A stretch of 29,460 nucleotides of DNA from an uncultured Acidimicrobiaceae bacterium (GCA_964383515.1 CAYLIR010000001.1:1-29460); one strand, 5' to 3'; positions 1,604 to 22,836 are shown, numbered from the stretch's first letter. Numbers and translations: made by a program. Notes: generated by a model not told the origin, from the letters alone.

Positions 1604-2836
1604 ATGGACGACGTTCAACGCGCGGCCGACGAGCCGCTACTCCCCGAGACACTCGACAGAGCAGATGAGTACCCACCATCATCGCCATGGTCTCCGCGTG
1701 CGAAGCTCGTGGTCATCGCCATGGCCTTCGTACTTGCTCTTGTTGGCCTCTACCTTGTGCGCAACGTGCTGGCGGTCGCCGCCCTTGCTGCCCTGATAGC
1801 GTTCCTCGTCGCTCCCCTCATCCGGCTGTCGACGAAGTATCTGAAAGTTCCTCGCGGCATAGCGTTGACCATCACCTATCTCATCGTGCTGATCGGCACG
1901 ATCGGATTTGGATATCTGCTGACACGATCGATCGTTGCCTCGATCATCGAGTTGGATCCGGTCGGCCTGATCGAGACGATGCGCGTTGCGCTGCTCGAAC
2001 ACGTCAACGAGCAGGGCCACCTGATCCTCGCCGGTGTGGCCTTGGACATGAACTCCGTCCTCGACTCTCTCCAGACATCCATCGGCTCGGGAAGCGGACC
2101 CGGTGGGATCGTCGTCGACGCTGAACGGGCCCTGGAGTATCTTGGCAGCAGCCTCAGTGGATTCCGGACCGTCCTTGGCATCGTGACAGCAGTGGTTACG
2201 TCCGCGATCGTTACCGGCCTTGTTGCGGTCTATCTCAACGCAGACAGCGAAAGGATGTACGCCGCTGTAGTCGCCAACATCCCGCCTGGCTACGAGCGGG
2301 ACGGCTTGCATCTCATGGCAGCGACCAAGCGTGTCTGGCGCGGCTATCTGTACGGGCAGCTCGTGAATTCACTGATCACCGGGGCGCTCATGTTCATCGT
2401 TCTGTGGCTGGTCGGTCTACCAGGTGCGTTCCTCATGGGTGCGATCATGGTGGTGCTCAACATGATCCCCACCTTCGGGCCGATCCTGGCGGCCATACCA
2501 GGTGTGCTCGCAGCCCTGTTGTCCGGGTCCACGCGGTGGCCGGACCTTGAGAGCTACTGGTTCGCCCTGATCGTGGTAGGCATCTACCTGGTCGTGGTGC
2601 AGCTGCAGGCGAACATCATCGCTCCGAAGGTCATGGGGCAAGCGGTGCGCCTCCGTCCGGCGATCGTGCTGTTGGGGCTCCTCGTCGGGTTTCAGGTGGG
2701 AGGCTTGCTCGGATCCCTGCTCGCCGTTCCTGTCATCGCATCGATTCGTGATGTGGCTGTGTACATATGGCGCAAGCTCATCGATGCGGATCCTTGGCGT
2801 ACGGACGATGCGGCCGAGTCTGGATCTGCGCCTTGA
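1604..2836 (+). CDS. AI-2E family (PerM-like) transporter
   Basis: IAFLVAPLI, YLYGQLVNSLI, LNMIPTFGPI, QLQANIIAPKVMG..V.L.P and GLLGSLLAVPV motifs. Start set at ATG 1604, 6 nt after TACCGT. Confidence 0.9.
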   Translation: MDDVQRAADEPLLPETLDRADEYPPSSPWSPRAKLVVIAMAFVLALVGLYLVRNVLAVAALAALIAFLVAPLIRLSTKYLKVPRGIALTITYLIVLIGTIGFGYLLTRSIVASIIELDPVGLIETMRVALLEHVNEQGHLILAGVALDMNSVLDSLQTSIGSGSGPGGIVVDAERALEYLGSSLSGFRTVLGIVTAVVTSAIVTGLVAVYLNADSERMYAAVVANIPPGYERDGLHLMAATKRVWRGYLYGQLVNSLITGALMFIVLWLVGLPGAFLMGAIMVVLNMIPTFGPILAAIPGVLAALLSGSTRWPDLESYWFALIVVGIYLVVVQLQANIIAPKVMGQAVRLRPAIVLLGLLVGFQVGGLLGSLLAVPVIASIRDVAVYIWRKLIDADPWRTDDAAESGSAP

Positions 2837-4383
2837 CGCGCACCGTTGCGACCGATGTTGCGATCGTGGGCGGTGGGCTCGGAGGGTTGTCCGCCGCGCG
2901 GCACCTCCAAGCCGAAGGCTACGAAGTCGTCGTTGTCGAGCAGCACACCAAACCGGGTGGCTATGCCCATTGCTTTCGGGCTCGTGGATATCGCTTCGAG
3001 GTGGCGCTTCATGCCCTCGATGGGTTGGGCCCCGGTGGATGGGCGAAGCCGATGTTCGCGGCCCTCGGCATCGCCGATACGGTCGCATTCAACCAGTTGA
3101 ACCCGTTCTACACCGTGGCGTTTCCTGGCCTCGAACTCGATGTTTTCACGGGTGTCAAGAGGTACGTCCACACGATGGCCAGCGTGTTTCCCCGGGAGCG
3201 GGAAGGGCTTCGCTTGCTGTTCGATGCGATCGTACGCGTCGGCCACGACGTTGCGCGCTTCACGCGTGACCGTTCCTCCGGCGCGAAGCCCAACCAGATG
3301 CAGATGCTCGAACGGTATCCAGACATGGCCATGGCATTTGCGAGCAGCTGGGCCCAGTTCATGGGTCAGTACCTGGTGTCAGACGAAGTGAAAGCTGTCG
3401 TGTCGACGCTGTGGGGGTACCTTGGCCTACCTCCATCGAAAGTGTCGGCTGGCCAGTTCGCGCTGACGCTGCTCTCCTACCTCTCTGCTGGTGCGTGGTA
3501 CCCGACGGGTGGGTCCGGAGCGATGACCTTCGCCATAGCGGATGCGATCGAACGCGACGGCGGTTCCGTCTTCTTGCGCAACATGGTGACATCGATAGTC
3601 CCTGAAGCGAACACCTCTGTGGTCGTGACGACCGACACAGGCCTTTCCATCCGTGCCAAGGCAGTGGTGTCGAACGCGAGCCCTGCCGATACCGCGGCGC
3701 TCCTTCCTGAGTCTGTTCGCAGCCAAGACTGGGTGGAGAAGGTGGGGCAAGAGGTGCCGGCGCTCTCGACGTTCACGGTGCACCTCGGCATCGACCGCGA
3801 CCTCACCGCCGAGGGATGGGATCATCATGAGTTCTTCGAGATGTGCGGTTACGACATCGAGGCTGAGTATGAAGCCATCGTCCGCGGCGACTTCGCGAAC
3901 GCAGGGATGATCATCTCGAACTACTCGGTCATCGACCCGAGTTGTGCACCGCAAGGCAAGACGGTGATCGTGCTGACGGTTCTTGCCCCCTGGGACTACC
4001 ACGGCGTGTGGGGCACCGGTGGCGACATCGAGGGCTACCAGGACGATCCGCGCTACGTGGCTGAGAAGGAGGCAGTGGCCGAGATCCTCATCGACCGAGC
4101 CACTCGGAGGATCCCCGGGCTCAGGGACGCCATCGAGGTGATGCGGATAGGGACACCCTTGACGAACGCACGCTACGTACGCCAGCCCCATGGTTCGATC
4201 TACGGACGAGAGCAAACGGTCGAGAACATGCTGCATCGTGCACGCCCATCGACCCCTGTGCCGAACCTTTTCCTGGCAGGAGCCTGGATCGGCGGGGGTG
4301 GCATGACGGCGGCAGTCGCATCGGGGAGATCGGCCGCAGGTTCCGTTGCGCGGTACCTCGCAGCCGAACACGCCAGCGCGTAG
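2833..4383 (+). CDS. FAD-dependent oxidoreductase, phytoene desaturase/CrtI-like (retinol-reductase-like) family
   Basis: DVAIVGGGLGGL dinucleotide fold, EQHTKPGGYAH..F...GYRFEV, YPTGGSGAM, TPLTNARY and NLFLAGAW motifs. TTG start overlaps the upstream stop (TTGA, 2833-2836). Confidence 0.85.
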   Translation: MTRTVATDVAIVGGGLGGLSAARHLQAEGYEVVVVEQHTKPGGYAHCFRARGYRFEVALHALDGLGPGGWAKPMFAALGIADTVAFNQLNPFYTVAFPGLELDVFTGVKRYVHTMASVFPREREGLRLLFDAIVRVGHDVARFTRDRSSGAKPNQMQMLERYPDMAMAFASSWAQFMGQYLVSDEVKAVVSTLWGYLGLPPSKVSAGQFALTLLSYLSAGAWYPTGGSGAMTFAIADAIERDGGSVFLRNMVTSIVPEANTSVVVTTDTGLSIRAKAVVSNASPADTAALLPESVRSQDWVEKVGQEVPALSTFTVHLGIDRDLTAEGWDHHEFFEMCGYDIEAEYEAIVRGDFANAGMIISNYSVIDPSCAPQGKTVIVLTVLAPWDYHGVWGTGGDIEGYQDDPRYVAEKEAVAEILIDRATRRIPGLRDAIEVMRIGTPLTNARYVRQPHGSIYGREQTVENMLHRARPSTPVPNLFLAGAWIGGGGMTAAVASGRSAAGSVARYLAAEHASA

Positions 4384-4420: not shown

Positions 4421-6373
4421 TCAGTTGTCCCCTGCGGGATCGGATTGTTCGGCGATCGCCTGGACGACTTCCGCATTGGCCAGTGTGGTCACGTCACCGA
4501 GCACCCGATTGTCCGAGATGTCTCGCAACAACCTCCGCATGATCTTCCCCGACCTGGTCTTGGGAAGGTCCGGGGTGAAGATGATCGTCCGCGGCTTGGC
4601 TATCGCTCCGATCTTCTTCGCGACGTGGCCGCGCAGTTCCTCGAGGAGATCATCGGATTCGTGAGCTGTTGCGCGCAGTGTCACGAACGCAGCGATCGCT
4701 TGCCCCGTGAGGTCGTCCGTTGCACCGACGACTGCCGCCTCTGCGACAGCGGGATGTGATACGAGAGCCGACTCGACCTCCATGGTCGAGATGCGGTGGC
4801 CGGAGATGTTCATGACATCGTCGACTCTTCCCAGGATCCACAGATAGCCGTCCTCGTCGATCTTCGCGCCGTCTCCAGCGAAGTACACGCCGGGGTAGCG
4901 TTCCCAGTACGTCGATACATATCGGGCATCGTCGCCGTAGATCGATCGGAGCATCGAGGGCCACGGCTTCGTGATCGTGAGGAACCCGCCACCTCCAAGA
5001 GGAACAGGATTCCCTTCGATGTCCACGACCTCGGCGAAGATCCCGGGTATCGGCTTGGTCGCCGAACCAGGTTTCGTTGGTGTCACACCCGGGAGTGGGC
5101 TGATCATGATCGAACCGGTCTCGGTCTGCCACCACGTGTCGACGATGGGGCAGTCGTCTCCGCCGATGTGCTCGCGGTACCACATCCATGCTTCCGGGTT
5201 GATCGGTTCGCCTACGGTTCCCAGCAGGCGCAGAGACGACAGATCGTGTCGTTCGGGATACTCGGTGCCCCATTTCATGAACGCCCGGATCGCGGTGGGT
5301 GCGGTGTACAGGATCGTGACGCCGTACTCCTCGACGATCGCCCAGAGGCGATCCTTGTCCGGGTAGTCGGGCGTGCCTTCGTACATGACGCTCGTCGTGT
5401 GGTTGCTGAGCGGGCCGTACACGATGTAGGTGTGGCCGGTCACCCAGCCGATGTCGGCTGCACACCAGTACACATCGCTGTCTGGCTTGATGTCGAACAC
5501 GAGGGCGTGCGTTGTCGCCGCCCCGGTGAGATAGCCACCTGTCGTGTGCATGATGCCTTTCGGCTTGGCCGTCGTGCCGGAGGTGTAGAGGATGTAGAGC
5601 AGGTCTTCTGCGTTCATGACCTCGGGCTCGCAATCGTTCGATTGCTCCGCGACCAGGTCGTGCCACCAGATGTCTCTGCCTTCGGCCATGGAGACATCTG
5701 CGCCGGTGCGCTCGACGACGACACAGTGGTCGATGGAAGGGGTCGATGCCATGGCCTCGTCACAGTTGTCCTTGAGCGGCACGATCGATCCGCGCCGCCA
5801 CGCGCCGTCGCAGGTGATGAGAAGCTTGGCTTGCGCATCGTTGACCCGGTCGATGATCGAGTCCGCGCTGAAACCACCGAAGATGACGGAGTGCGGGGCG
5901 CCGATACGCGCACATGCCAGCATCGCAACAGGGAGTTCGGGGACCATTCCCATGTAGATCGCGACACGGTCCCCTTTCGTCACACCGAGCGAGCGGAGCC
6001 CGTTCGCGAATCGGTTCACCTCGTCAGAGAGCTCCTGGTAGGTGATGGTGCGGGTATCGCCAGGTTCACCTACCCAGTGGTAGGCGACCTTGTCTCCTCC
6101 GTTCTCGAGGTGCCGGTCCAGGCAGTTGTACGAGATGTTGAGTTCGCCGTCCGCGAACCAACGGAAGAACGGAGCATTCGAGTCGTCGAGGCCTTCCTGC
6201 GGCTCGGTGAACCAGGTGATGCGTTCCTTTGCCTGGCGTGTCCAGTAGGCGATGTAGTCGTTGGCCGCTTCCTCGTAGAGATCCGGTTTCGCTACCGCGT
6301 TGTCTGCAAAGTCCCTTGGTGGCGGAAACGTCCTGTTCTCTTCGAGTAGATTCTCGATGCCACTATCGCTCAT
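4421..6373 (-). CDS. acs: Acetyl-CoA synthetase (AMP-forming)
   Basis: LYTSGTTAKPKG, ADIGWVTGH, VGEPINPEAW, DTWWQTETG, GRVDDV and PKTRSGKIMRRLLR (acetylatable Lys). SD AAGGGAGG precedes ATG 6373. Confidence 0.97.
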   Translation of the reverse strand: MSDSGIENLLEENRTFPPPRDFADNAVAKPDLYEEAANDYIAYWTRQAKERITWFTEPQEGLDDSNAPFFRWFADGELNISYNCLDRHLENGGDKVAYHWVGEPGDTRTITYQELSDEVNRFANGLRSLGVTKGDRVAIYMGMVPELPVAMLACARIGAPHSVIFGGFSADSIIDRVNDAQAKLLITCDGAWRRGSIVPLKDNCDEAMASTPSIDHCVVVERTGADVSMAEGRDIWWHDLVAEQSNDCEPEVMNAEDLLYILYTSGTTAKPKGIMHTTGGYLTGAATTHALVFDIKPDSDVYWCAADIGWVTGHTYIVYGPLSNHTTSVMYEGTPDYPDKDRLWAIVEEYGVTILYTAPTAIRAFMKWGTEYPERHDLSSLRLLGTVGEPINPEAWMWYREHIGGDDCPIVDTWWQTETGSIMISPLPGVTPTKPGSATKPIPGIFAEVVDIEGNPVPLGGGGFLTITKPWPSMLRSIYGDDARYVSTYWERYPGVYFAGDGAKIDEDGYLWILGRVDDVMNISGHRISTMEVESALVSHPAVAEAAVVGATDDLTGQAIAAFVTLRATAHESDDLLEELRGHVAKKIGAIAKPRTIIFTPDLPKTRSGKIMRRLLRDISDNRVLGDVTTLANAEVVQAIAEQSDPAGDN

Positions 6374-6474
6374 CGCGTTCCTCCCTTGGTGGTGTGGGTG
6401 TGATTCTCGCGGACTACGCGCGCCAACGCGGCGTTGCAACGCTCCAGCATCAGCTCTCGGGTAGGAGCCGACTG

Positions 6475-7440
6475 CTAGGTGTGTTTCTTGAGCTTGTCCA
6501 ATCCCAACAGGGAGATCACGCCTTGTTCTCGGGATTCCATCTGTTTGGCGAGGGGAATCCCTGTGCCTTCGGCGATGCGGTTCATCATGGCGAAGTTTCC
6601 GAACACAGCCGCTGCGTCCACGAGAGCGTGCGGACCGAGTTCCCCGATGATCTGTTCGCGGACGTCGGTGAGGGGTATCGGGGAGGTGCCTGTCACGGCA
6701 TCGACGAAATGGAGAAGCGTGTTGCCTCCGGGCACGCCGAGAGGGACATCGGGGTTCGCAATCGCTGAGAGGTCGATGTCATAGCCATAGGCGAGTGCGC
6801 TCTCACGGAGCATCACAACATGGTGCGTTGCTCAGTAGAAGCAGTCCTGGTGGATCGACGTACGCGACGCGACCGTTTCGAGTTGCGCCCGGTCGAGGCC
6901 CGGCGTCCGCGCGAACCTGGGTGAGGCCATCTCGGCGAAGGTCATGTAGTGCGGGCCGCACGCTGTGGCGTACACTTCGTTCTCCTCGGGAAGGAGTTCG
7001 AGTGCGACCGTGATCGAGTTCCTCGGCATCGGCACGTAGGTTCTGCGCTTCTTGAGACCGGAGGCGATGTTCCCCGTCGGGTCTCCTGGCATCGGATCGG
7101 GAAGAGGCACCTGGGCTGCACCCAGGGCGAGGTGTGTGCTATCTACGGCGGCGAGCATGGAGACGATGGAAACCGTTTCGACGACGGCGGCTTCACCATG
7201 TGCGGTGACGGCTCCATCGACCATGGTTGCTGAGACCGAACCAGGGTCGTTGTACAGAGTGGTTGCGAGGCGTTCGATGGCATCGGTGGTTGGGGCGTCC
7301 TCGCGAGCGATACTGAGGATCGAGATGCGGCGCGATGCATCGAACACAGGGCCGGGACGTGCAATATGCTCCCAGATCGCTTGGTGTGCGCCACGGAGAT
7401 CGTCGCGTATGGGTACTGGCGATCCTGCATAGGTGAACAT
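6475..7440 (-). CDS. AhpD/carboxymuconolactone-decarboxylase-like protein, probable selenoprotein (in-frame TGA at 6834-6832 read as Sec; 321 aa)
   Basis: ORFs 6832-7440 and 6475-6816 are in the same frame: TGC TTC TAC TGA GCA ACG CAC CAT GTT GTG ATG CTC. This gives LETVASRTSIHQDCFY-U-ATHH, matching the AhpD E..(A)S....CxxC...H motif. Confidence 0.75.
6795..6816 (-). promoter_or_regulatory. Candidate bacterial SECIS hairpin
   Basis: mRNA GUG-A-UGCUC[CGUGA]GAGCG-CAC: 8 bp with one bulged A. The apical loop begins 24 nt after the UGA and has G at its second position followed by U. Confidence 0.55.
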
Positions 7441-7495
7441 GTGGTGAGCGTACTGCGCTGCAGGAGGTTGGGCAGCGAACCTCTCGCCTGCGTTC

Positions 7496-7642
7496 TCAGT
7501 GGACGGAGCGCACAGCGAGCACTCCCAAGGTGAGCACACTCAGTCCGACAACGAGCAAGCGCAGATCCTTGTTCCTCCTCGACGCGAGGAATGCCCCCAC
7601 CGAGAGCACAGCCCACACCATGCCCTGGACGGTTGTGCCCAT
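7496..7642 (-). CDS. Putative 48-aa membrane protein
   Basis: MGTTVQGMVWAVLSVGAFLASRRNKDLRLLVVGLSVLTLGVLAVRSVH has two hydrophobic segments and fills the gap between co-oriented genes. No clear SD. Confidence 0.35.
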   Translation of the reverse strand: MGTTVQGMVWAVLSVGAFLASRRNKDLRLLVVGLSVLTLGVLAVRSVH

Positions 7643-7668: not shown

Positions 7669-8178
7669 TCACACGGGGTTGCGTTCGCCTGCCCTGATCG
7701 GGACCGTGAGCCAGTTCTCCTGTGGAGGGAGCGCGCACGAGTACCGGTCGCTATATGCACAGAACGGAGCGTACGCGTAGTTGAAGTCGATGACGGCCGT
7801 GCCGTCTTCGCGGGGGGTCACATCGATGTACCGGCCAGCGCCGTACGTCTCGGATCCCGAGGTCATATCGCGGAACGGCAGAAAAAGGCTGTCGTGGCCG
7901 GTCGAATAGAGGGCAACGTCAACGTCTTCTCCCTCGACGGTGAACCGCGCTCTTGCGACTCGCTTGTAGGTGCGCTCATCGCTGGTCGTCGTGCTGATCT
8001 GGATGTCCGACGGCGCAACTGGTTCGAGGTCGACCTCGAACGCGAAGCTCTCATCCGGTTCGTAGTACGAGAGGCCGGTGAAGTCTCGCTGCTTGTCAGG
8101 TGGGAGCGGAGACTGGGGAGCGAACTTGAAGAACTGGTCCTTCTGATCGCGGAAGTCGAGTAGCTGCGATGTCTGCAC
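7669..8178 (-). CDS. DUF1684 domain protein
   Basis: LFLPFRDMTSGSETYGAGRY, IDFNYAYAPFCAYS..YSCALPP.EN.L and AGE motifs. GTG start inferred. Confidence 0.9.
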   Translation of the reverse strand: MQTSQLLDFRDQKDQFFKFAPQSPLPPDKQRDFTGLSYYEPDESFAFEVDLEPVAPSDIQISTTTSDERTYKRVARARFTVEGEDVDVALYSTGHDSLFLPFRDMTSGSETYGAGRYIDVTPREDGTAVIDFNYAYAPFCAYSDRYSCALPPQENWLTVPIRAGERNPV

Positions 8179-8291
8179 ATGTACCGGAACGCCACCACAC
8201 AGAGCTGTATTCCGCAGGGCCACACAGTAGGGCTGCTCTCGGCACCGGTTGGTATCATCTGGTCGTCCTGGGAACAAGGGAGTGGAAACTC

Positions 8292-8558
8292 GTGTGCTGT
8301 CTATTCGCGTCGATGACCCTGATCGGGCCCCGATTCGGGATATTGCTGTGGTGGCTCCTGGACCAAGACCGGTGGAGGGCAACGTTCTCGAGTTTCTGGA
8401 TAGCGGCTATCGGGTTCTTCTTCGCTCCGTGGACCACGATCTTCTACATGGTCACCTTCCCTGGTGGTATCGAAGGCTTCGATTGGATCATCCTCGGTAT
8501 CGGGGTCGTGCTCGATTTCGGTTCCTACTCAGGTGGTGTGTTCAGCCGCCGTAGGTAG
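8292..8558 (+). CDS. Small uncharacterised integral membrane protein (88 aa)
   Basis: GTG start after AAGGGAG. Sequence CCLFASMTLIGPRFGILLWWLL...FFFAPWTT...GVVLDFGSYSGG is hydrophobic and coding-like. Confidence 0.65.
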   Translation: MCCLFASMTLIGPRFGILLWWLLDQDRWRATFSSFWIAAIGFFFAPWTTIFYMVTFPGGIEGFDWIILGIGVVLDFGSYSGGVFSRRR

Positions 8559-9548: not shown

Positions 9549-9816
9549 CGCGCTGCTGTCCAAAGGTGGGCGCGTCGTCGATCGAGCGTCCCAGGCATCG
9601 TGGAGAGAGCGGCTCGCACGCCGGAGATCTCTCGGGACGGCGACAGACACCGTCACGCGTGACTACGGTAGGGGAACGGCGAGCTCGGGGTTCACAGGCA
9701 CGATGGCCTGTGCACCGTCTGGGTGACGTCCCGGGGTGAACAACGAGGGGAAAGCTGGTTGCTGAGATGTGTCCGGTAAGAAGAATCCGATTGGCAGCGA
9801 CCGCCGGGAGCAAGCG

Positions 9817-10857
9817 ATGAAGGTGCTGATAACCGGTCACGACGGCTACATCGGCGCTGTGCTGGTTCCCATGTTGACGCAAGCTGGCCACGAGGTGATC
9901 GGAATGGATACGTTCCTCTACGCCGGATGCTCCTTTGGCGACGCGGTCCCGGACCCCCCTTCGATCGCCATGGATGTTCGCGACGTCACTGCCGAGCATC
10001 TCGAGGGAGTTGACGCGGTGATCCATCTCGCTGCCGTGTCGAACGATCCGCTCGGTGACCTCAACCCCGACGCCACGTTCGACATCAACCATCGTGCCAC
10101 GACGCGCCTCGCCAATGCGGCGAAAGCAGCAGGTGTCAAGCGGTTCCTCTTTTCCTCTTCGTGCAGCCTCTACGGTGCCCATGGCGATGACTATCTGGAC
10201 GAGCATGGTGTGTTCAACCCCGTGACTCCCTACGGTGAATCCAAGGTACTGAGCGAGAGGGATCTGCACGACCTCGCAGACGACGACTTCAGCCCAACCT
10301 ACCTGCGGAACGCAACCGCATACGGCGTGTCCCCCCGACTTCGGGGGGATGTGGTGGTGAACAACCTCACTGGATTCGCGTTCACAACGGGAAAGGTCTT
10401 CCTCAAGAGCGATGGTTCGTCGTGGCGCCCCCTGGTTCATGTCGAAGACATCTCGCGAGCGTTCATCGCTGTCCTAGCTGCAGATCGCGATCTGGTGCAC
10501 GACGAAGCCTTCAATGTGGGATCCACAGAGGAGAACTATCAGATCGCGGAGGTCGCGCACATCGTGCAGGATCTCGTTCCGAACAGTCGTGTAACACTGT
10601 CAGATACCGCATCGCACGATCCAAGGAACTACAGGGTGAACTGCGACAAGCTCTCGGATACGCTGCCAGGCGCACGTCCGCTGTGGACGGTGCGCAGAGG
10701 GGTCGGGGAGCTGTACAGCGCTTTCGTGAGCAGGGGAATGGAACTGGATCAACTGGAAGGGGACCGGTTCATGCGCATCCGCAGGGTGCAGGCGCTCATC
10801 GACGAGGGACGCTTGGACAGTTCCCTTCGTTGGACCAAGCGCGAGAGAGTTTCGTGA
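9817..10857 (+). CDS. NAD-dependent epimerase/dehydratase (extended SDR)
   Basis: [36 protein letters not shown] (YxxxK) and [16 protein letters not shown] precedes ATG 9817. Confidence 0.93.
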
Positions 10858-12035
10858 CGTCACCCCTTCGTCACCGGCTGTGCCCGGCGTGCGGGTCCGA
10901 CGAGCTCACGCCGTTCCACCATCAGGGCGGTGTTCCTACCAACAGCTGCCTCCTGCTGGCTACCGAGGATGAGGCAAAGCAGTTCCCGACGAGCGAGATC
11001 CGCCTTGCGTTGTGTGAGCGATGCGGTTTCATGACGAACACGAGTTTCGATCCGTCGCTTGCCGAGTACTCAGGCCGGTACGAGGAGACCCAGGCCTACT
11101 CGTCCCGTTTCGTGTCCTTTGCGAGGTCGCTGGCTGAAGGCTGGGTGCACCGGTACGACCTTGTGGACAAGACCGTCCTCGAGATCGGATGCGGCAAGGG
11201 AGAGTTCCTTGTCATGATGGCCGAGGCTGGCATCGGCCACGGTATCGGGATGGATCCCGGTGTGCACCCCGAACGGATAGAAGCGATGCAGGACCGACTC
11301 GAGTGGGTTCCTGACCTCTTCGTGGCAGGCACGAGCATTCACGGCGCTGATGCGATTGTGTGCCGCCACACGCTCGAGCACATAGGACCGGTGGGAGAGT
11401 TCCTCACGGCGGTCCGCACAGCGATCGGCCCGGCACTCGACACGGTCGTCCTCTTCGAGCTTCCCGACACGCGCCGTATCTTGAAGGAGGTCGCGTTCTG
11501 GGACATCTACTACGAGCACTGCTCGTACTTCACGGAGGGGTCGCTTGCAAGACTGTTCGAGCGTTCGGGATTCGAGGTGCTCAACCTGGCGCACGCGTTC
11601 GAGGGCCAGTATCTTCTCATCGAGGCGAAGCCTGTCACTGGAGGGAGAACACCACGGGTGTGGCCTTCTGACCCGGTCGACGATGTGAAACGCGACATCG
11701 AGCATTTCGCGGACGTCTACGGTGAGACCGTCTCTCGCTGGGTCGAGGAACTGCGCGCTCGCAACCGTGCTGGCGGAACGACGGTCGTATGGGGCGCGAG
11801 TTCCAAGGCCGTGTCGTTCCTGGCGGAGGTCGGGGACTTCGTCACGGCAGCTGTGGATGTCAACCCGAACAAGCACGGGATGTTCGTAGCGGGCACAGGG
11901 CACCGAATCGTTGCTCCGCAGGACCTCGGCGAGATCGCCCCCGACCTTGTCGTTGTGATGAACCCGATCTACAGAGAAGAGATCGCGCAGGACCTCCTTC
12001 GTCTGGGTATCGACGCGGAGCTCGTGTCCCTCTAG
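10854..12035 (+). CDS. Class I SAM-dependent methyltransferase, Zn-binding NDP-sugar C-methyltransferase type
   Basis: N-terminal CPACG...CERCG Zn ligands, [25 protein letters not shown] and C-terminal VVWGASSK...[13 protein letters not shown] overlap with upstream gene. Confidence 0.88.
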
Positions 12036-12063
12036 CGTTCCTGCCGGCCGATCATTCGGATTG

Positions 12064-12990
12064 TCACGGAGCGGTGCGGTTTCGACGAAGAGCCATGGCG
12101 AACCCGATGTACAGGTCGTTCACGAGCCTCTTCCAGTTGCCTTCCCTCACCCACGTTGCGATGACACGCAGGCAACGCGCCTTGTTGCGTGCGCCGACGG
12201 GGCTTCGTAGCGTTGCTGCCGTGAAGCTGCCGAGGCGGCGCCAGTTGGGGAACACGATGCGGCCTTGTCGTGAAGTGTCGAACCATGCCTCTCTGCCATG
12301 CCCCCAACGTTCGACCTTGCGGCGAACAGATCGTCCAGCATGGTCGCGGTTGAGGAACAGTTGCTCGGGTATCTCGTAGAACGGCCCGAGCAGAGCCAGT
12401 TCCATGAGCAGCGTCCGGTCGCTGCCCGTATAGCTTCCGTGGAGTGATGTGTCCATGAGGGCTGACCTCCGCATCAGCCCGAACACCACAGCATCAGAGG
12501 CTCCGCCGTTTCGATACGCGTGGATAGCGTGTCGGATGCGTTCAGCGACATCGGGCGAAGCGAGACCGGGACGTGGTTCCCCCGCGCCGATAGCTCTCCC
12601 TTGCCCGTCGATGAATCGGAACATCGCGTAGGCAACGACGCAGTCGGGCCGTTCATCCAGTGCCGATACGCAGCGCTCGAGATAGGTCCTCAGGATGAGA
12701 TCGTCGTGTGCCATCCACATGAAATAGGAAGCGCGGGACCGCCGGAAGACGTCGTTGTAGTTCGGAGCTGCGCCGAGGTTCTTCCGCTGGCGGTGGTAGC
12801 GGATGCGCGGGTCGTTCTCTGCATACGATCGGCAGATCTCCTCGGTACGGTCGGTGGAGGCATTGTCTGCGATGACGAGCTCGAAGTCGGTGAAGGTCTG
12901 ATCGAGGATCGCATCGATCGTTTCAGCGAGATAGTTCTCGCCGTTGTACACGGGTATTCCGATACTGACACGAGGGGCGGGATGTGTCAT
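12064..12990 (-). CDS. Glycosyltransferase family 2
   Basis: VSIGIPVYNGENYL, IADNASTDRT, NLGAAPNYN, FMWMAHDD (DxD-like) and GSDRTL. Confidence 0.92.
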   Translation of the reverse strand: MTHPAPRVSIGIPVYNGENYLAETIDAILDQTFTDFELVIADNASTDRTEEICRSYAENDPRIRYHRQRKNLGAAPNYNDVFRRSRASYFMWMAHDDLILRTYLERCVSALDERPDCVVAYAMFRFIDGQGRAIGAGEPRPGLASPDVAERIRHAIHAYRNGGASDAVVFGLMRRSALMDTSLHGSYTGSDRTLLMELALLGPFYEIPEQLFLNRDHAGRSVRRKVERWGHGREAWFDTSRQGRIVFPNWRRLGSFTAATLRSPVGARNKARCLRVIATWVREGNWKRLVNDLYIGFAMALRRNRTAP

Positions 12991-13069
12991 GGGCGATCCT
13001 GGTTGACCCTGATGTCGGCGTGCCTTGCGTTGCCCTTCACCGTTGATGTTGAGCGAGGCCGATTCGCGG

Positions 13070-13717
13070 TCACCATTGGACGACACAGCGATCGACGTGG
13101 AATGCCTCCGCGTAGCGCTCGACAGCCCGGCATTCGACGCCGCGAAGACGCAGTATGGATTGGAGTGCCTGCCGGTCGTACCACGGCTTGGTGTGCTGGC
13201 TGGAGAAGTGCGCGCCAAGGTGGTCCAGTTTCGCTTCGGCCTCGTTGGCGGAGAGCGGAACATAGATGCCAGGTCTGGCCAGGTCCGCATCGGACTTGAC
13301 GATCTCGTATTGCACCACGAGGGTGTTGCGCAGGATCTGGTGGGCCAGCTCAGCGACGAAGCGATGATCTTGGTGCCGGTCCGATAGTCCCGGGACGATG
13401 GCGATATCTGCAGAGAATCCGTCGAGGGAACCGCGAAGGAACCGTTTCACAGCAGCGGGTTCGTCGTAGGGGAGGAATCCGTCGGCGAACGCTCCGGCCT
13501 TCACTGTGACGCGATCGCCAAGGAGCGCTGTTGCGCTCGCTTGGGCTTCAGCGATGCGCGTGTCGTCACCTGTTGCGATGATGAACACGAACCGGCAGTC
13601 GGCGTTCGCTGCGGCGATCTGCACGATGGTTCCGGCGGCACCGATCTCGATGTCGTCGGCGTGGGCGCCGAGACACGCAACGAAACGTATCGGGTGTTTC
13701 GGAGCCAGCCCGATCAC
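13070..13717 (-). CDS. PIG-L/LmbE family deacetylase
   Basis: GAHADDIEIG and DRHQDH metal-binding motifs, and HFSSQ..KPWY...RLRGVEC....AEAF. GTGA overlap with rfbF stop. Confidence 0.88.
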   Translation of the reverse strand: MIGLAPKHPIRFVACLGAHADDIEIGAAGTIVQIAAANADCRFVFIIATGDDTRIAEAQASATALLGDRVTVKAGAFADGFLPYDEPAAVKRFLRGSLDGFSADIAIVPGLSDRHQDHRFVAELAHQILRNTLVVQYEIVKSDADLARPGIYVPLSANEAEAKLDHLGAHFSSQHTKPWYDRQALQSILRLRGVECRAVERYAEAFHVDRCVVQW

Positions 13718-14499
13718 AGGTTGCCGCCTCTCCCCGGCACCCACGGTGCATGGCCCGATTCATAGAGGCCGTCGAGGTACTGCTTCTCTTTGAACGTGTC
13801 CATAGGCGACCAGAATCCATCGAAGCGGTGCGCATAGAGTTGGCGTTGCGCGAGGAGGCGCTGGAACGGTTGATATACGAGATCTTCACCCGGTTCGATG
13901 TAGTCGAAGATCTCTTTTCTGAAGATGAAGTACCCGCCATTGAGCCACAGGTTCGAACGAGATATCGGTCCGATGTCTTCCACGTTGCTGTCGTCGCCGA
14001 TCGAAGCGACGTGGTACGACTGTGGGGGACGTACCGCGAGGAGGCAGGCGACCTGTTGGCGGCTGGCGAACTCGTCGATGCAGGCGTTGAGATCGAGATC
14101 CGAGAGGCCGTCGGCGTAGTTCGCGAGGAACATCGCCTCACTGTCGAGGTGCTTCCTGACACGGCGGAGTCGTTCTCCGATCTCTGTGTGGAGGCCGGTA
14201 TCGACGAACGTGATCGTCCAATCGTCGATGTCGCTGCCAAGGAGGGTGCGTTCCTTACCCCCTGCGGTGAGCACGAAGTCGTTCGAGACAGCCTCTTCGT
14301 ACTCGAGGAAGAACTGCTTGATGACGTCTGCCCTGTACCCGAGACACAGGATGAAGTCCTTGTGCCCATGGTGTGCGTAGTACTTCATGAGGTGCCAGAG
14401 GATCGGACGGTATCCGATGGGCACCATAGGTTTGGGAATGTCCTGGTAGGACCCACGCAGCCGCATTCCCTGTCCACCACAGAAGAGGACGACTTTCAT
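13714..14499 (-). CDS. rfbF: Glucose-1-phosphate cytidylyltransferase-like sugar nucleotidyltransferase
   Basis: MKVVLFCGGQGMRL, PKPMVPIGYRPILWHLMKYY, FILCLGYR, DTGLHT.IG.RL, NYADGL, NGGYF and MDTFKE. Confidence 0.88.
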   Translation of the reverse strand: MKVVLFCGGQGMRLRGSYQDIPKPMVPIGYRPILWHLMKYYAHHGHKDFILCLGYRADVIKQFFLEYEEAVSNDFVLTAGGKERTLLGSDIDDWTITFVDTGLHTEIGERLRRVRKHLDSEAMFLANYADGLSDLDLNACIDEFASRQQVACLLAVRPPQSYHVASIGDDSNVEDIGPISRSNLWLNGGYFIFRKEIFDYIEPGEDLVYQPFQRLLAQRQLYAHRFDGFWSPMDTFKEKQYLDGLYESGHAPWVPGRGGNL

Positions 14500-15749
14500 G
14501 CGGGGCCTTTCGGGTAGACGGCCAGTTCAGGGATAGGAACGATGAATCGACCTCCCCACTGGGTGATGTAGTCGAGCTGTTGCATGATCTCGGTGCGCAG
14601 GTTCCACGGCAGGATCAGCACATAGTCCGGTTCGGTTTCAGCGATGCGCTCCGGGCCATAGACAGGGATGTGGGTGCCTGGCGTGTATCTCCCATGCTTG
14701 TACGGGTTGCGGTCACAGGCATAGTCGATGGTGTCCGGACCGATTCCGCAGTAGTTGAGAAGTGTGTTGCCCTTTCCCGCAGCTCCATATATGGCGATCG
14801 TCTTCCCTGACGACTTGGCGTCGGCGAGGAACGCTACGAGGCGATGCTTCGTGGATTCCACCGTCTCTGCAAAGTCGTGGTAGGTGTCGATCGTCGTGAT
14901 CCCGAAGTCGACTTCCCTGGCAAGGAGCCGCCGTACCCGCTGATGCACGGGCTTGGCTGTGTCGTTGTCATGTCGTAGGTAGATCCGAAGCGAACCGCCG
15001 TGGGACCAGAGCTCGTCGACGTCGTACACGGTAAGGCCCGCCTGAGCGAAGACCTGTTGGGCCGTGACGAGCGAGAAGTAGGAGAAGTGCTCGTGGTAGA
15101 TCGTGTCGAATTGGTTCCCCTCGATAAGGCGCATCAGGTGTGGGAACTCGAACGTGGCGGTGCCGCCTGGTGCGAGGATCTCAGCGATGCCCGACACGAA
15201 GTCGTTCAAGTTGGGAACCTGGGCGAGGACGTTGTTGCCGATGACGAGGTCGGCGTGGTATCCGGTAGCGGTGAGTTCCATGGCAAGGGCGAGGTCGAAG
15301 AACTCGACTCTGGTCGCAACACCTCGTGCCCGAGCCGCTTGGGCAACGTTCGCAGCAGGTTCGATGCCAAGTGCCGGTATCCCCTTCTCCACGAAGTACT
15401 GGAGGAGGTAGCCGTCATTGCTTGCGATCTCAAGCACATGTGAATCCGAGTCGAGGGCGAAGCGGTCCGTTGCCATGTCGACGTACTGGCTGGCATGTTC
15501 GAGCCACGCCGTCGAGTAGGCAGAGAAGTAGGCATAGTCGTTGAAGATCGTCTCCGGGCTGACGAACTCGTCGACCTGTACGAGAAAGCACTCGTCACAC
15601 ACCCATGCATGCAGGGGGTAGTAGGGCTCGGGCTGATCGAGTTCCTCTGGCAGTAGGAACGTCTCACACAGGGGCGTCTCCCCGAGATCAGCGAAGCTCG
15701 TTTTCAGCGTTGCCCCGCAGTGCCGACAGTGGATCGCGTCGTCAGTCAT
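14496..15749 (-). CDS. NDP-hexose C3-methyltransferase-like SAM methyltransferase (Zn-binding)
   Basis: CRHCG...CDECF, VLEIASNDGYLL, NNVLAQVP, YHEHFSYFS, HGGSLR, YGAAGKGNTLLNY and GGRFIVPIP. Confidence 0.92.
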   Translation of the reverse strand: MTDDAIHCRHCGATLKTSFADLGETPLCETFLLPEELDQPEPYYPLHAWVCDECFLVQVDEFVSPETIFNDYAYFSAYSTAWLEHASQYVDMATDRFALDSDSHVLEIASNDGYLLQYFVEKGIPALGIEPAANVAQAARARGVATRVEFFDLALAMELTATGYHADLVIGNNVLAQVPNLNDFVSGIAEILAPGGTATFEFPHLMRLIEGNQFDTIYHEHFSYFSLVTAQQVFAQAGLTVYDVDELWSHGGSLRIYLRHDNDTAKPVHQRVRRLLAREVDFGITTIDTYHDFAETVESTKHRLVAFLADAKSSGKTIAIYGAAGKGNTLLNYCGIGPDTIDYACDRNPYKHGRYTPGTHIPVYGPERIAETEPDYVLILPWNLRTEIMQQLDYITQWGGRFIVPIPELAVYPKGPA

Positions 15750-22704: not shown

Positions 22705-22836
22705 GGAGCTTGACGGGTCCGGCCTGTGACCGAACTTTCAGCCGACAGCTTGGAGCAAGGGAGGATCCTAGCTGGCTCGGTAGGGCGGGCGGCATCAGTA
22801 TTGGTTACAGGCCATCAGGGGGACCCGGCAAGCTCC
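22705..22836 (+). ncRNA. Candidate rod-shaped ncRNA (6S-like architecture)
   Basis: GGAGCTTG-A-CGGGTCC pairs GGACCCG-G-CAAGCTCC. GGCCTGTGACC pairs GGTTACAGGCC. An asymmetric central bubble is followed by apical GCCGA-CAGCT-T-GGA / TCC-T-AGCTG-GC-TCGGT. CACAAT lies 6 nt upstream and TCTTCTT downstream. Confidence 0.5.

What the first reader, a model, noticed from the sequence alone, without database searches (positions are those of the whole stretch)
6475..7440. Hidden selenoprotein: AhpD-like CxxU enzyme split by ORF callers into two genes
Seen: the 5' ORF ends exactly at CFY-TGA. The frame stays open through ATHHVV into the next ORF, which has no clear SD of its own. The TGA sits at the second Cys position of the AhpD motif (E..AS.....CxxC...H), with the motif His still following it. 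Established: UGA can encode Sec and Sec commonly replaces redox Cys. Inference: one 321-aa protein with Cys200-x-x-Sec203, implying selA/selB/selC/selD elsewhere in this actinobacterial genome. CFYU-type AhpD-related selenoproteins have been noted in family databases, so the family may not be new, but its function is unknown.
Basis: partly seen in the sequence, partly recalled or inferred. Interest (0 to 1): 0.85.

Follow-up and report, generated by a model that had tools for sequence, protein, structure and literature searches.

The report
Known AhpD-related selenoprotein, split by gene callers
The two adjacent reading frames are one 321-residue redox protein that carries selenocysteine at an in-frame TGA; the reading is correct, but the family has been known since 2005, so this is an ordinary, usually mis-annotated member.

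Summary
The observation and the interpretation both hold. The gene lies on the minus strand, from ATG 7440 to TAG 6475. It encodes 321 aa with one in-frame TGA at 6832-6834, in the motif C200-F-Y-U203.

The fused protein scores 224 bits against NCBIfam NF041238 [quoted passage not shown] (cut-off 175). In 22 of 23 family members from related genomes a TGA sits in the same alignment column. The 23rd has Cys there.

The AhpD proton-relay residues E188, C200, Y202, U203 and H207 have the canonical spacing. E188, C200, U203 and H207 are invariant; Y202 is F or W in three homologs.

A 5-bp hairpin with a 5-nt loop lies 20 nt after the UGA and is conserved. It is held in place by fixed synonymous codons (Leu CTC 22/22, Ser AGY 22/22) and is lost in the Cys form.

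The genome encodes selA, selB, selD and tRNA-Sec, and TGA is its commonest ordinary stop codon.

AlphaFold (pLDDT 96.6) shows two AhpD/CMD-like lobes. The catalytic site is in the C-terminal lobe. The best whole-length structural match is human Sestrin2.

The family is "hypothetical protein 1" of the 2005 Sargasso Sea selenoproteome, so it is already known. Its substrate is still unknown, and no gene neighbour is conserved across the family.

The scan also noted the hairpin earlier on this same window.

The parts
6475..7440 (-). Complete selenoprotein gene: 321 codons plus the TAG stop
   Evidence: Translation with TGA=U. NF041238 scores 224 bits against a cut-off of 175. Homolog alignments start at the Met at 7438-7440.
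7438..7440 (-). ATG start codon (MFTYAG...)
   Evidence: Most homologs begin M/V-F-x-F at this column. The upstream GTG at 7539 adds 33 residues that no homolog shares.
6832..6834 (-). In-frame TGA, read as selenocysteine 203 (C-F-Y-U)
   Evidence: The same column holds TGA in 22 of 23 relatives and TGC (Cys) in one.
6820..6879 (-). Active-site helix-turn-helix: E188 ... C200-F-Y202-U203 ... H207
   Evidence: E188, C200, U203 and H207 are invariant in alignment A2. The spacing equals the AhpD proton relay: E118/C130/H132/C133/H137 in M. tuberculosis AhpD and E36/C48/Y50/C51/H55 in PA0269 (PMC3141380).
6795..6816 (-). SECIS-like hairpin: GUG, bulged A, UGCUC, loop CGUGA, GAGCG, CAC. It starts 15 nt after the UGA, and the loop lies 25-29 nt after it.
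   Evidence: RNAalifold picks this 5-bp hairpin in 22 Sec forms. 83.5% of cells are paired, against 27-64% when the partners are slid. Leu is CTC in 22/22 and Ser is AGY in 22/22, against 51% and 24% elsewhere in the same genes, and both are lost in the Cys form.
7111..7440 (-). N-terminal lobe (residues 1-110): five helices, a degenerate AhpD/CMD-like fold without Cys
   Evidence: AF2 model of the lobe alone has pLDDT 95.4. The seven best of 48,161 PDB chains are all AhpD/CMD-superfamily members, Z 5.5-8.6, and cover residues 1-110.
6991..7110 (-). Extended, non-helical Pro/Gly-rich linker (residues 111-150) with invariant L113, P114 and G119
   Evidence: Secondary structure of the model. Invariant columns.
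6478..6990 (-). C-terminal catalytic AhpD-like lobe (residues 151-321)
   Evidence: Profile search of PDB sequences: 2pfx 1e-12 and 6k40 3e-12 over profile positions about 156-302. Structural matches with Z 10-11 over model residues 131-307.
6475..6477 (-). TAG, the true stop codon

Best explanation
Window 6475-7440 (minus strand) is one gene for a 321-aa selenoprotein of the NCBIfam family NF041238 (AhpD-related, CFYU motif).

Shown or strongly supported: the UGA at 6832-6834 is recoded to selenocysteine. A small hairpin sits 15-37 nt downstream (5-bp upper stem, 5-nt loop containing G, bulged A). I infer that it recruits SelB carrying Sec-tRNA(Sec). The genome encodes all four parts of the machinery: selA, selB, selD and tRNA-Sec.

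The protein has two AhpD/CMD-like helical lobes joined by a Pro-rich linker. The N-terminal lobe has lost the redox motif. The C-terminal lobe carries the full AhpD proton relay (E188, C200, Y202, U203, H207).

Inferred mechanism: it works as a thiol/selenol oxidoreductase of the AhpD type. The selenolate of U203 stands at the position of the attacking Cys133 of M. tuberculosis AhpD and is activated through H207, a water molecule and E188. It attacks an oxidised substrate, such as a hydroperoxide or the sulfenate/disulfide of a partner protein like a peroxiredoxin. C200 then resolves the intermediate into an intramolecular selenenylsulfide, and a cellular thiol reductant recycles the enzyme. 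The physiological substrate is not known.
For: The gene is a single unit. The HMM match of 224 bits (cut-off 175) spans the TGA. The two halves are always adjacent and separated by exactly one codon in 14 further loci. The AF2 model has pLDDT 96.6, and the helix that carries C-F-Y-U runs straight through the TGA position.

The TGA means Sec. TGA is in the same column in 22 of 23 homologs that share only 25-73% identity, and Cys is there in the 23rd. Of the 23 homologous genes, 12 end at an ordinary TGA about 120 codons further on, 11 of them Sec forms. TGA is the commonest stop of long ORFs in this genome, 510 of 775. The recoding is therefore site-specific.

Sec machinery is present. selA is split over two contig ends, 199 + 112 bits. 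selB scores 315 bits. selD scores 370 bits and itself has Sec in G-A-G-U-A-C-K. tRNA-Sec scores 62.9 bits and has anticodon TCA. selB was found in 35 of 41 relatives, and the four gene carriers without it are only 63-79% complete.

SECIS hairpin: and the entry under parts.

Redox chemistry. The relay residues are conserved with exact AhpD spacing (PMC3141380). The fold matches AhpD-like structures.

Literature. The family is listed as a CxxU selenoprotein (PMC13188914; PMC1088965).
Against: There is no experimental evidence here for selenium incorporation or for any enzyme activity. The upper stem of the hairpin is invariant, so it shows no two-sided covariation; only the lower pair 23-42 does, with 6 sequences. 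The support therefore comes mainly from synonymous-codon fixation, and the sequences are related. The 71-nt region does not fold better than shuffled sequence (z -0.36). An alternative hairpin that includes the UGA itself is the minimum-free-energy fold in this one sequence, but it is not conserved. No Rfam family matches. No ahpC/peroxiredoxin or reductase gene is adjacent; the peroxiredoxin genes lie on other contigs. No neighbour is conserved across the family, so the substrate and the partner are guesses.
Confidence: 0.9

Rival explanations
1. These are two separate genes. Translation ends at the TGA, giving a 202-aa protein, and a 113-aa protein is made independently from the GTG at 6816. 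This is how public annotations present the locus.
For: Gene callers produce exactly these products. All 59 database homologs are N-terminal fragments, and AlphaFold DB holds C-terminal fragments of 105-118 aa as separate entries. Sec insertion is never fully efficient, so some 202-aa truncated product is probably made as a by-product.
Against: The break falls inside the catalytic C-x-x-C/U motif and inside a predicted helix. One curated HMM spans both parts. The two parts are in the same frame and exactly one codon apart in every genome examined. The codon at the break is always TGA, never TAA or TAG, and one homolog has Cys there and is uninterrupted. The GTG has no ribosome-binding site and lies inside the conserved hairpin.
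Confidence: 0.03
2. It is a pseudogene or a sequencing error: a nonsense mutation that inactivated a Cys-containing AhpD-like gene.
For: The genome is a fragmented metagenome-type assembly of 381 contigs. A TGC-to-TGA change needs only a single substitution.
Against: The same TGA occurs in 22 independent genomes from more than 15 genera. The residues downstream of it are as conserved as those upstream, including the invariant H207, L211, G269, N287 and R288. Synonymous codons are fixed to keep the hairpin.
Confidence: 0.01
3. The UGA is read through, but not as selenocysteine. Possibilities are near-cognate Trp or Cys insertion, or Cys delivered by the Sec machinery when selenium is scarce.
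For: This cannot be told apart from Sec by sequence alone. Cys insertion at Sec codons through the same machinery is known in other systems (my own knowledge).
Against: A complete Sec machinery and a conserved SECIS-type hairpin at the right distance are present. The position is a redox Cys position where Sec/Cys pairs are typical, and the family is catalogued as a selenoprotein.
Confidence: 0.04
4. The protein is a selenoprotein, but the chemistry is not AhpD-like peroxide or disulfide reduction. It could be a reductive dehalogenase like the CMD-family debrominase Bmp8, or a Sestrin-like sensor or regulator that merely reuses the fold.
For: Bmp8 is among the best structural matches (Z 11.4-11.6, model residues 70-313). 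Human Sestrin2 is the best whole-length match (Z 15.3-15.7). No peroxiredoxin partner gene is nearby.
Against: The complete AhpD relay (E, C, Y, U, H with exact spacing) is conserved. The sequence-profile matches are to peroxidase-related AhpD proteins, 2pfx and 6k40 at 1e-12, while Bmp8 scores only 0.76. A shared fold by itself shows no function.
Confidence: 0.15

Closest known systems
NCBIfam NF041238 AhpD_rel_CFYUT, alkylhydroperoxidase-related (seleno)protein. This is 'hypothetical protein 1' of the Sargasso Sea selenoproteome (Zhang, Fomenko and Gladyshev 2005, PMC1088965) and is listed in the 2026 review PMC13188914.
   Same: The score exceeds the curated equivalog cut-off (224 against 175 bits). 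It has the same C-F-Y-U motif, a similar length and a SECIS-type hairpin after the UGA.
   Different: The residue after Sec is Ala here (CFYUA), whereas the family name has Thr (CFYUT). Relatives have T, V or L there. The match to the first 70 profile positions is weak. Nothing else differs.
AhpD-like selenoproteins of the TIGR01926 / COG2128 type ('AhpD-like 1' of marine metagenomes, about 190 aa, CxxU)
   Same: It has the same CxxU redox motif on the same helix hairpin. Sec is at the second Cys position, and the fold matches that of the C-terminal lobe.
   Different: Those proteins have a single lobe and oligomerise. This protein has an extra N-terminal degenerate lobe and a linker in the same chain, and it scores only 21 bits against TIGR01926 (cut-off 81.8). 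The same genome carries a separate CHYU protein of that kind on contig C58.
Mycobacterium tuberculosis AhpD (1KNC/1GU9) and Pseudomonas aeruginosa PA0269 (2O4D)
   Same: The proton relay matches. E188/C200/Y202/U203/H207 correspond to E118/C130/H132/C133/H137 and to E36/C48/Y50/C51/H55 with identical spacing. The fold is all-helical AhpD (Z 7.9-8.0).
   Different: Sec replaces the second Cys. The architecture has two lobes. No ahpC gene is adjacent. Sequence similarity is limited to the roughly 30-residue active-site hairpin (E 0.0013).
Human Sestrin2 (5DJ4/5CUF)
   Same: It is the best whole-length structural match in an exhaustive PDB comparison: Z 15.3-15.7, with 230 residues aligned over model residues 1-296. 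Both proteins are single chains built from two AhpD/CMD-like lobes.
   Different: There is no detectable sequence similarity (8-9% identity). The redox motif is in the C-terminal lobe here, whereas to my knowledge Sestrin2's AhpD-like Cys is in its N-terminal domain. The bacterial protein is shorter and lacks the Sestrin linker domain. Common descent at the level of the two-lobe architecture is not shown.

Membership tests
NCBIfam NF041238 (AhpD_rel_CFYUT) | Whole-protein HMM score above the curated equivalog cut-off of 175 bits | tested here: met
   224.3 bits, E 2.6e-66, with U read as C. On the DNA the score is 189 bits, or 216 bits with the N-terminal piece added.
NCBIfam NF041238 (AhpD_rel_CFYUT) | C-F-Y-U(-T) motif with Sec or Cys at the fourth position | tested here: met
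   The motif C200-F-Y-U203-A is present. The +1 residue is A here and T, V or L in relatives.
Bacterial selenoprotein | An in-frame UGA aligned with UGA or Cys in homologs, with conservation on both sides | tested here: met
   22 homologs have TGA and 1 has Cys in the same column. Invariant residues lie on both sides.
Bacterial selenoprotein | A SECIS stem-loop shortly downstream of the UGA, with a small apical loop containing G | tested here: met
   A conserved 5-bp stem with a 5-nt loop (CGUGA, CGGGC, AGUUC and similar) has its loop 25-29 nt after the UGA. Synonymous codons are fixed, and the hairpin is absent from the Cys form. SelB binding was not tested.
Bacterial selenoprotein | selA, selB, selC (tRNA-Sec) and selD in the same genome | tested here: met
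   selA is split by contig ends next to selB.
Bacterial selenoprotein | Selenium physically present in the protein | not testable with these tools
   This needs 75Se labelling or mass spectrometry.
AhpD / alkylhydroperoxidase D (functional sense) | Proton-relay residues Glu, Cys-x-x-Cys and His on a two-helix hairpin | tested here: met
   E188, C200, U203 and H207 are invariant and have the canonical spacing.
AhpD / alkylhydroperoxidase D (functional sense) | Pfam CMD (PF02627) or TIGR00778 AhpD core domain above its threshold | tested here: not met
   PF02627 scores 17.6 bits against a cut-off of 23, and TIGR00778 scores 11.2 against 27.8. A profile of the family does reach AhpD-like PDB sequences at 1e-12.
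AhpD / alkylhydroperoxidase D (functional sense) | Genetic linkage to ahpC, or demonstrated reduction of AhpC | tested here: not met
   There is no peroxiredoxin gene on the window's contig. Nine AhpC-TSA matches lie on other contigs. No neighbour is conserved across the family. Activity cannot be tested here.
Sestrin | Sequence membership (Sestrin/PA26 family) and a two-lobe AhpD-like architecture | tested here: inconclusive
   The architecture resembles Sestrin2 (Z 15.3-15.7), and the N-terminal lobe on its own is AhpD/CMD-like. No Sestrin family appears in the Pfam scan, and identity is 8-9%. It works like a tandem AhpD fold but is not filed as a Sestrin.

The most novel reading that the evidence does not exclude
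The NF041238 family may be a prokaryotic counterpart of the Sestrin architecture. It is a single chain with two AhpD/CMD lobes, one degenerate and one catalytic, here driven by selenium. Its two-lobe arrangement could reflect either common descent with Sestrins or convergent evolution. Its physiological role could then be something other than peroxiredoxin recycling, for example a stand-alone seleno-peroxidase or a redox sensor. I did not find the two-lobe fold or the Sestrin2 resemblance mentioned for this family in the passages of the papers I read.
Probability: 0.25. Interest if true: 0.45.

Novelty: already known. Interest (0 to 1): 0.2.

Why it matters
There are three practical points.

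1. It is a clean worked example of a selenoprotein gene that standard gene callers cut in two. Every public homolog retrieved is a fragment labelled 'hypothetical protein'. MAG annotation in this Acidimicrobiia-like order therefore under-reports its selenoproteome.

2. The organism appears to invest heavily in selenium. It has SelD-Sec, two AhpD-type selenoproteins, and several peroxiredoxin-family genes with an in-frame TGA.

3. The family still has no known substrate 20 years after its discovery. The confident two-lobe model, with its Sestrin2-like arrangement, gives a concrete starting point for biochemistry.

None of this changes what is known in kind.

Tried and rejected
- Rfam scan of 6400-7600 at E up to 10 found no match. 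Bacterial SECIS elements of this kind are not matched by any Rfam model.
- Folding 71 nt after the Tyr codon alone gave z -0.36, which is not informative. Its minimum-free-energy fold is a different hairpin that includes the UGA. I rejected that hairpin because it is not conserved in homologs.
- I looked for internal sequence similarity between the two lobes by BLASTP and found none. The relationship shows only at the fold level.
- I looked for a conserved gene neighbour, first with 1.5-kb flanks in 23 loci and then with 7-kb flanks in 15 loci. Only the nearest clade shares DUF1684 upstream and acetyl-CoA synthetase downstream, so there is no family-wide partner.
- Genome-wide TGA reassignment is rejected, because TGA is the commonest stop.
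- A phylum-wide survey of 301 genomes found the family only in the window's own order, in 4 genomes. It is not a general actinobacterial trait.
- I did not build a covariance model of the hairpin. The upper stem is invariant, so a model would add little.

Full report
**Observation.** The feature lies on the minus strand. The ORF 6832..7539 ends with Q-D-C-F-Y followed by TGA, which is the complement of window 6832-6834. The same frame continues A-T-H-H-V-V-M-L-R-E-S into the ORF 6475..6816 and stops at TAG 6475-6477. Homologs align only from the Met at 7438-7440 (M-F-x-F...). The GTG at 6816 that a gene caller would use for the second ORF has no purine-rich ribosome-binding site.

**Family.** With the TGA read as a residue, the protein scores 224.3 bits (E 2.6e-66) against NCBIfam NF041238, 'AhpD_rel_CFYUT, alkylhydroperoxidase-related (seleno)protein'. 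This is an equivalog model with a cut-off of 175 bits. Pfam CMD and the TIGR AhpD models are hit only below threshold. [quoted passage not shown] The 2005 paper it cites described that family as four sequences with a conserved CXXU motif, no functional evidence and a predicted SECIS element (PMC1088965). The kind is therefore already known.

**Is the TGA really Sec?**
- *Comparative evidence.* Among 41 related genomes, 23 have a match above the family cut-off. Of those, 22 carry exactly one in-frame TGA and one (G026) has none. After extraction and alignment, the TGA is in the same column in all 22 (N-E-C-F-Y-U-[TVLA]-x-x-H-x-x-M-L-R-x-S), and G026 has Cys there. Identity to the window protein ranges from 73% down to 25%, so this is not recent shared ancestry of a lesion.
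- *TGA still works as a stop.* Of the 23 homologous genes, 12 terminate at an ordinary TGA about 120 codons after the Sec/Cys column, 11 of them Sec forms. In this genome TGA ends 510 of 775 long ORFs, and it ends six of nine genes checked in the window. The code is not reassigned, and the recoding is local.
- *Machinery.* selA is present in two pieces at contig ends, one of them directly beside selB. selB scores 315 bits. selD scores 370 bits and is itself a selenoprotein with G-A-G-U-A-C-K. tRNA-Sec scores 62.9 bits against a gathering score of 47, and ARAGORN gives anticodon TCA. selB was found in 35 of 41 relatives. The four genomes that carry the TGA form but show no selB are only 63-79% complete.
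- *Unpublished genome.* The 41-genome tallies include one unpublished genome (G038).

**SECIS.** Downstream of the UGA all 22 Sec forms share A-U-G-C-U-C-N5-G-A-G-C.
- In the window the element is GUG, bulged A, UGCUC, loop CGUGA, GAGCG, CAC, at 6816-6795.
- The stem starts 15 nt after the UGA, and the apical loop lies 25-29 nt after it.
- RNAalifold on the 22 sequences returns exactly the 5-bp upper stem.
- For the 8-pair structure, 83.5% of cells are paired, against 27-64% when the 3' partners are slid. The covariation score is reached by 2 of 500 shuffles.
- Three upper pairs never vary, and two vary on one side only (G-C to G-U, U-G to U-A or C-G). The lower pair 23-42 shows six two-sided changes.

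Because the stem overlaps the conserved M-L-R-x-S codons, I tested synonymous usage. The Leu codon is CTC in 22/22, whereas CTC makes up 51% of the other Leu codons in the same genes. The Ser codon is AGC or AGT in 22/22, against 24% elsewhere. The Cys-containing homolog has CTG and an Ala codon there and cannot form the hairpin. The naive probabilities, about 1e-7 and 1e-16, overstate the case because the sequences are related, but the direction is clear.

The single-sequence fold is unremarkable (z -0.36), and its minimum-free-energy structure is a non-conserved alternative that includes the UGA. Rfam has no matching family. I reached it independently from the homolog comparison, and the comparison supports that hairpin over the alternative.

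**Protein anatomy.**
- *Active site.* Alignment A2 (23 sequences) has 16 invariant columns, including E188, S195, C200, U203 and H207. The spacing E-(12)-C-x-Y-U-(4)-H is that of the AhpD proton relay: E118/C130/H132/C133/H137 in M. tuberculosis AhpD and E36/C48/Y50/C51/H55 in PA0269 (PMC3141380).
- *Sequence relatives with structures.* A profile of the family finds peroxidase-related AhpD-like PDB sequences (2pfx 1e-12, 6k40 3e-12) over profile positions about 156-302, and MtAhpD over the active-site hairpin only.
- *Model.* AlphaFold2 with this alignment gives pLDDT 96.6 and pTM 0.94. It shows five helices (residues 13-106), a non-helical Pro/Gly-rich stretch (about 107-150) and a second helical lobe (151-317).
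- *Single-lobe matches.* AhpD-like structures align to model residues 131-307 with Z 10-11.
- *Whole-length match.* The best match, both among Foldseek's candidates and in an exhaustive comparison with 48,161 chains, is human Sestrin2: Z 15.7 and 15.3, with 230 residues over model residues 1-296. Every hit with Z above 5 belongs to the AhpD/CMD superfamily.
- *N-terminal lobe alone.* It folds with pLDDT 95.4. Its seven best PDB matches (Z 5.5-8.6, covering residues 1-110) are again all AhpD/CMD-superfamily proteins, after which Z drops to 4.6 or lower for unrelated helical proteins.
- *Conclusion.* The protein is a tandem of a degenerate and a catalytic AhpD-like lobe. BLASTP sees no similarity between the lobes.

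**Mechanism.** Shown by computation: one gene, site-specific UGA recoding signals, a complete Sec machinery, an AhpD-type active-site constellation and an AhpD fold. Inferred: U203 is the attacking selenolate at the position of AhpD Cys133, which from my own knowledge of the M. tuberculosis AhpD literature is the nucleophile. C200 would resolve the intermediate to a selenenylsulfide, H207 and E188 would relay the proton, and a cellular thiol system would re-reduce the enzyme. The oxidant (a peroxide or an oxidised peroxiredoxin) is not identified.

**Genomic context.** Context gives no help on function. The window has DUF1684 upstream (7669-8382) and acetyl-CoA synthetase downstream (4421-6439) on the same strand. 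That order is shared only by the closest clade. Peroxiredoxin-family genes lie on other contigs.

**Annotation and distribution.**
- All 59 homologs returned from the 5.8-billion-protein collection are 191-247 aa long and cover 57-64% of the query, which is the part before the TGA. Where named, they are 'hypothetical protein' from Actinomycetota or Acidimicrobiia MAGs.
- AlphaFold DB clusters hold N-terminal fragments (for example 210 aa aligned to residues 1-200) and separate C-terminal fragments (105-118 aa aligned to about 210-321).
- In an even sample of 301 genomes of the phylum, the family was found only in four genomes, all in the window's own order. Within that order it is common, in 23 of the 41 genomes searched.

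**Verdict.** Novelty is 'already known'. The small additions here are the comparative proof of the SECIS hairpin through codon fixation and the two-lobe, Sestrin2-like model. Interest is low, at 0.2.

Noticed in passing
Own genome, contig C58:8735-9100 (minus strand); not in the window: A second AhpD-type selenoprotein gene of the single-lobe TIGR01926-like kind, with motif C-H-Y-U-R-T-H-H. It is cut off by the contig end. A peroxiredoxin-family gene lies about 3 kb away on the same contig (C58:5176-5517). Most relatives carry a similar gene of about 200 aa with one TGA.
   Followed up: partly
Own genome, contig C90:6224-7015 (locus L014): Selenophosphate synthetase SelD is itself a selenoprotein here (G-A-G-U-A-C-K). 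A 6-bp hairpin starts 10 nt after its UGA.
   Followed up: partly
Own genome, contigs C320, C177, C274 and C93: Four of the nine AhpC-TSA (peroxiredoxin-family) matches contain one in-frame TGA. They may be further Prx-type selenoproteins, which would point to a sizeable selenoproteome in a 2-Mb genome.
   Followed up: no
Own genome, contigs C30:20-607 and C100:6242-6718: selA is split across two contig ends. The C-terminal piece lies directly upstream of selB (C100:4477-6219), so selA-selB is probably one operon broken by the assembly.
   Followed up: no
Loci L035, L037, L032, L031, L027, L024, L029, L028, L025, L023, L042: In 11 of the 22 Sec-form homologs the same mRNA uses TGA twice: once as Sec, and about 120 codons later as the real stop. 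This shows how local the recoding signal is.
   Followed up: yes
Window 7669-8382 (-) and 4421-6439 (-): The gene order DUF1684, then the selenoprotein, then acetyl-CoA synthetase is conserved in the nearest clade only. VIT1 (761-1525), an AI-2E-family transporter (1586-2836) and a flavin amine oxidase (2767-4383) are shared there too.
   Followed up: partly
AlphaFold DB cluster hit A0A2V9VWE1: A 571-aa protein annotated as 'RNA polymerase sigma factor' aligns structurally with residues 14-295 of the model. A two-lobe CMD-like module therefore seems to occur fused to a sigma factor in another organism.
   Followed up: no
Window 9817-15749 and 22705-22836: Earlier notes of the scan on this window describe a branched-sugar gene cassette and a 132-nt structured intergenic RNA. 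I saw only that 9769-10857 (+) is an NAD-dependent epimerase/dehydratase and did not examine them further.
   Followed up: no
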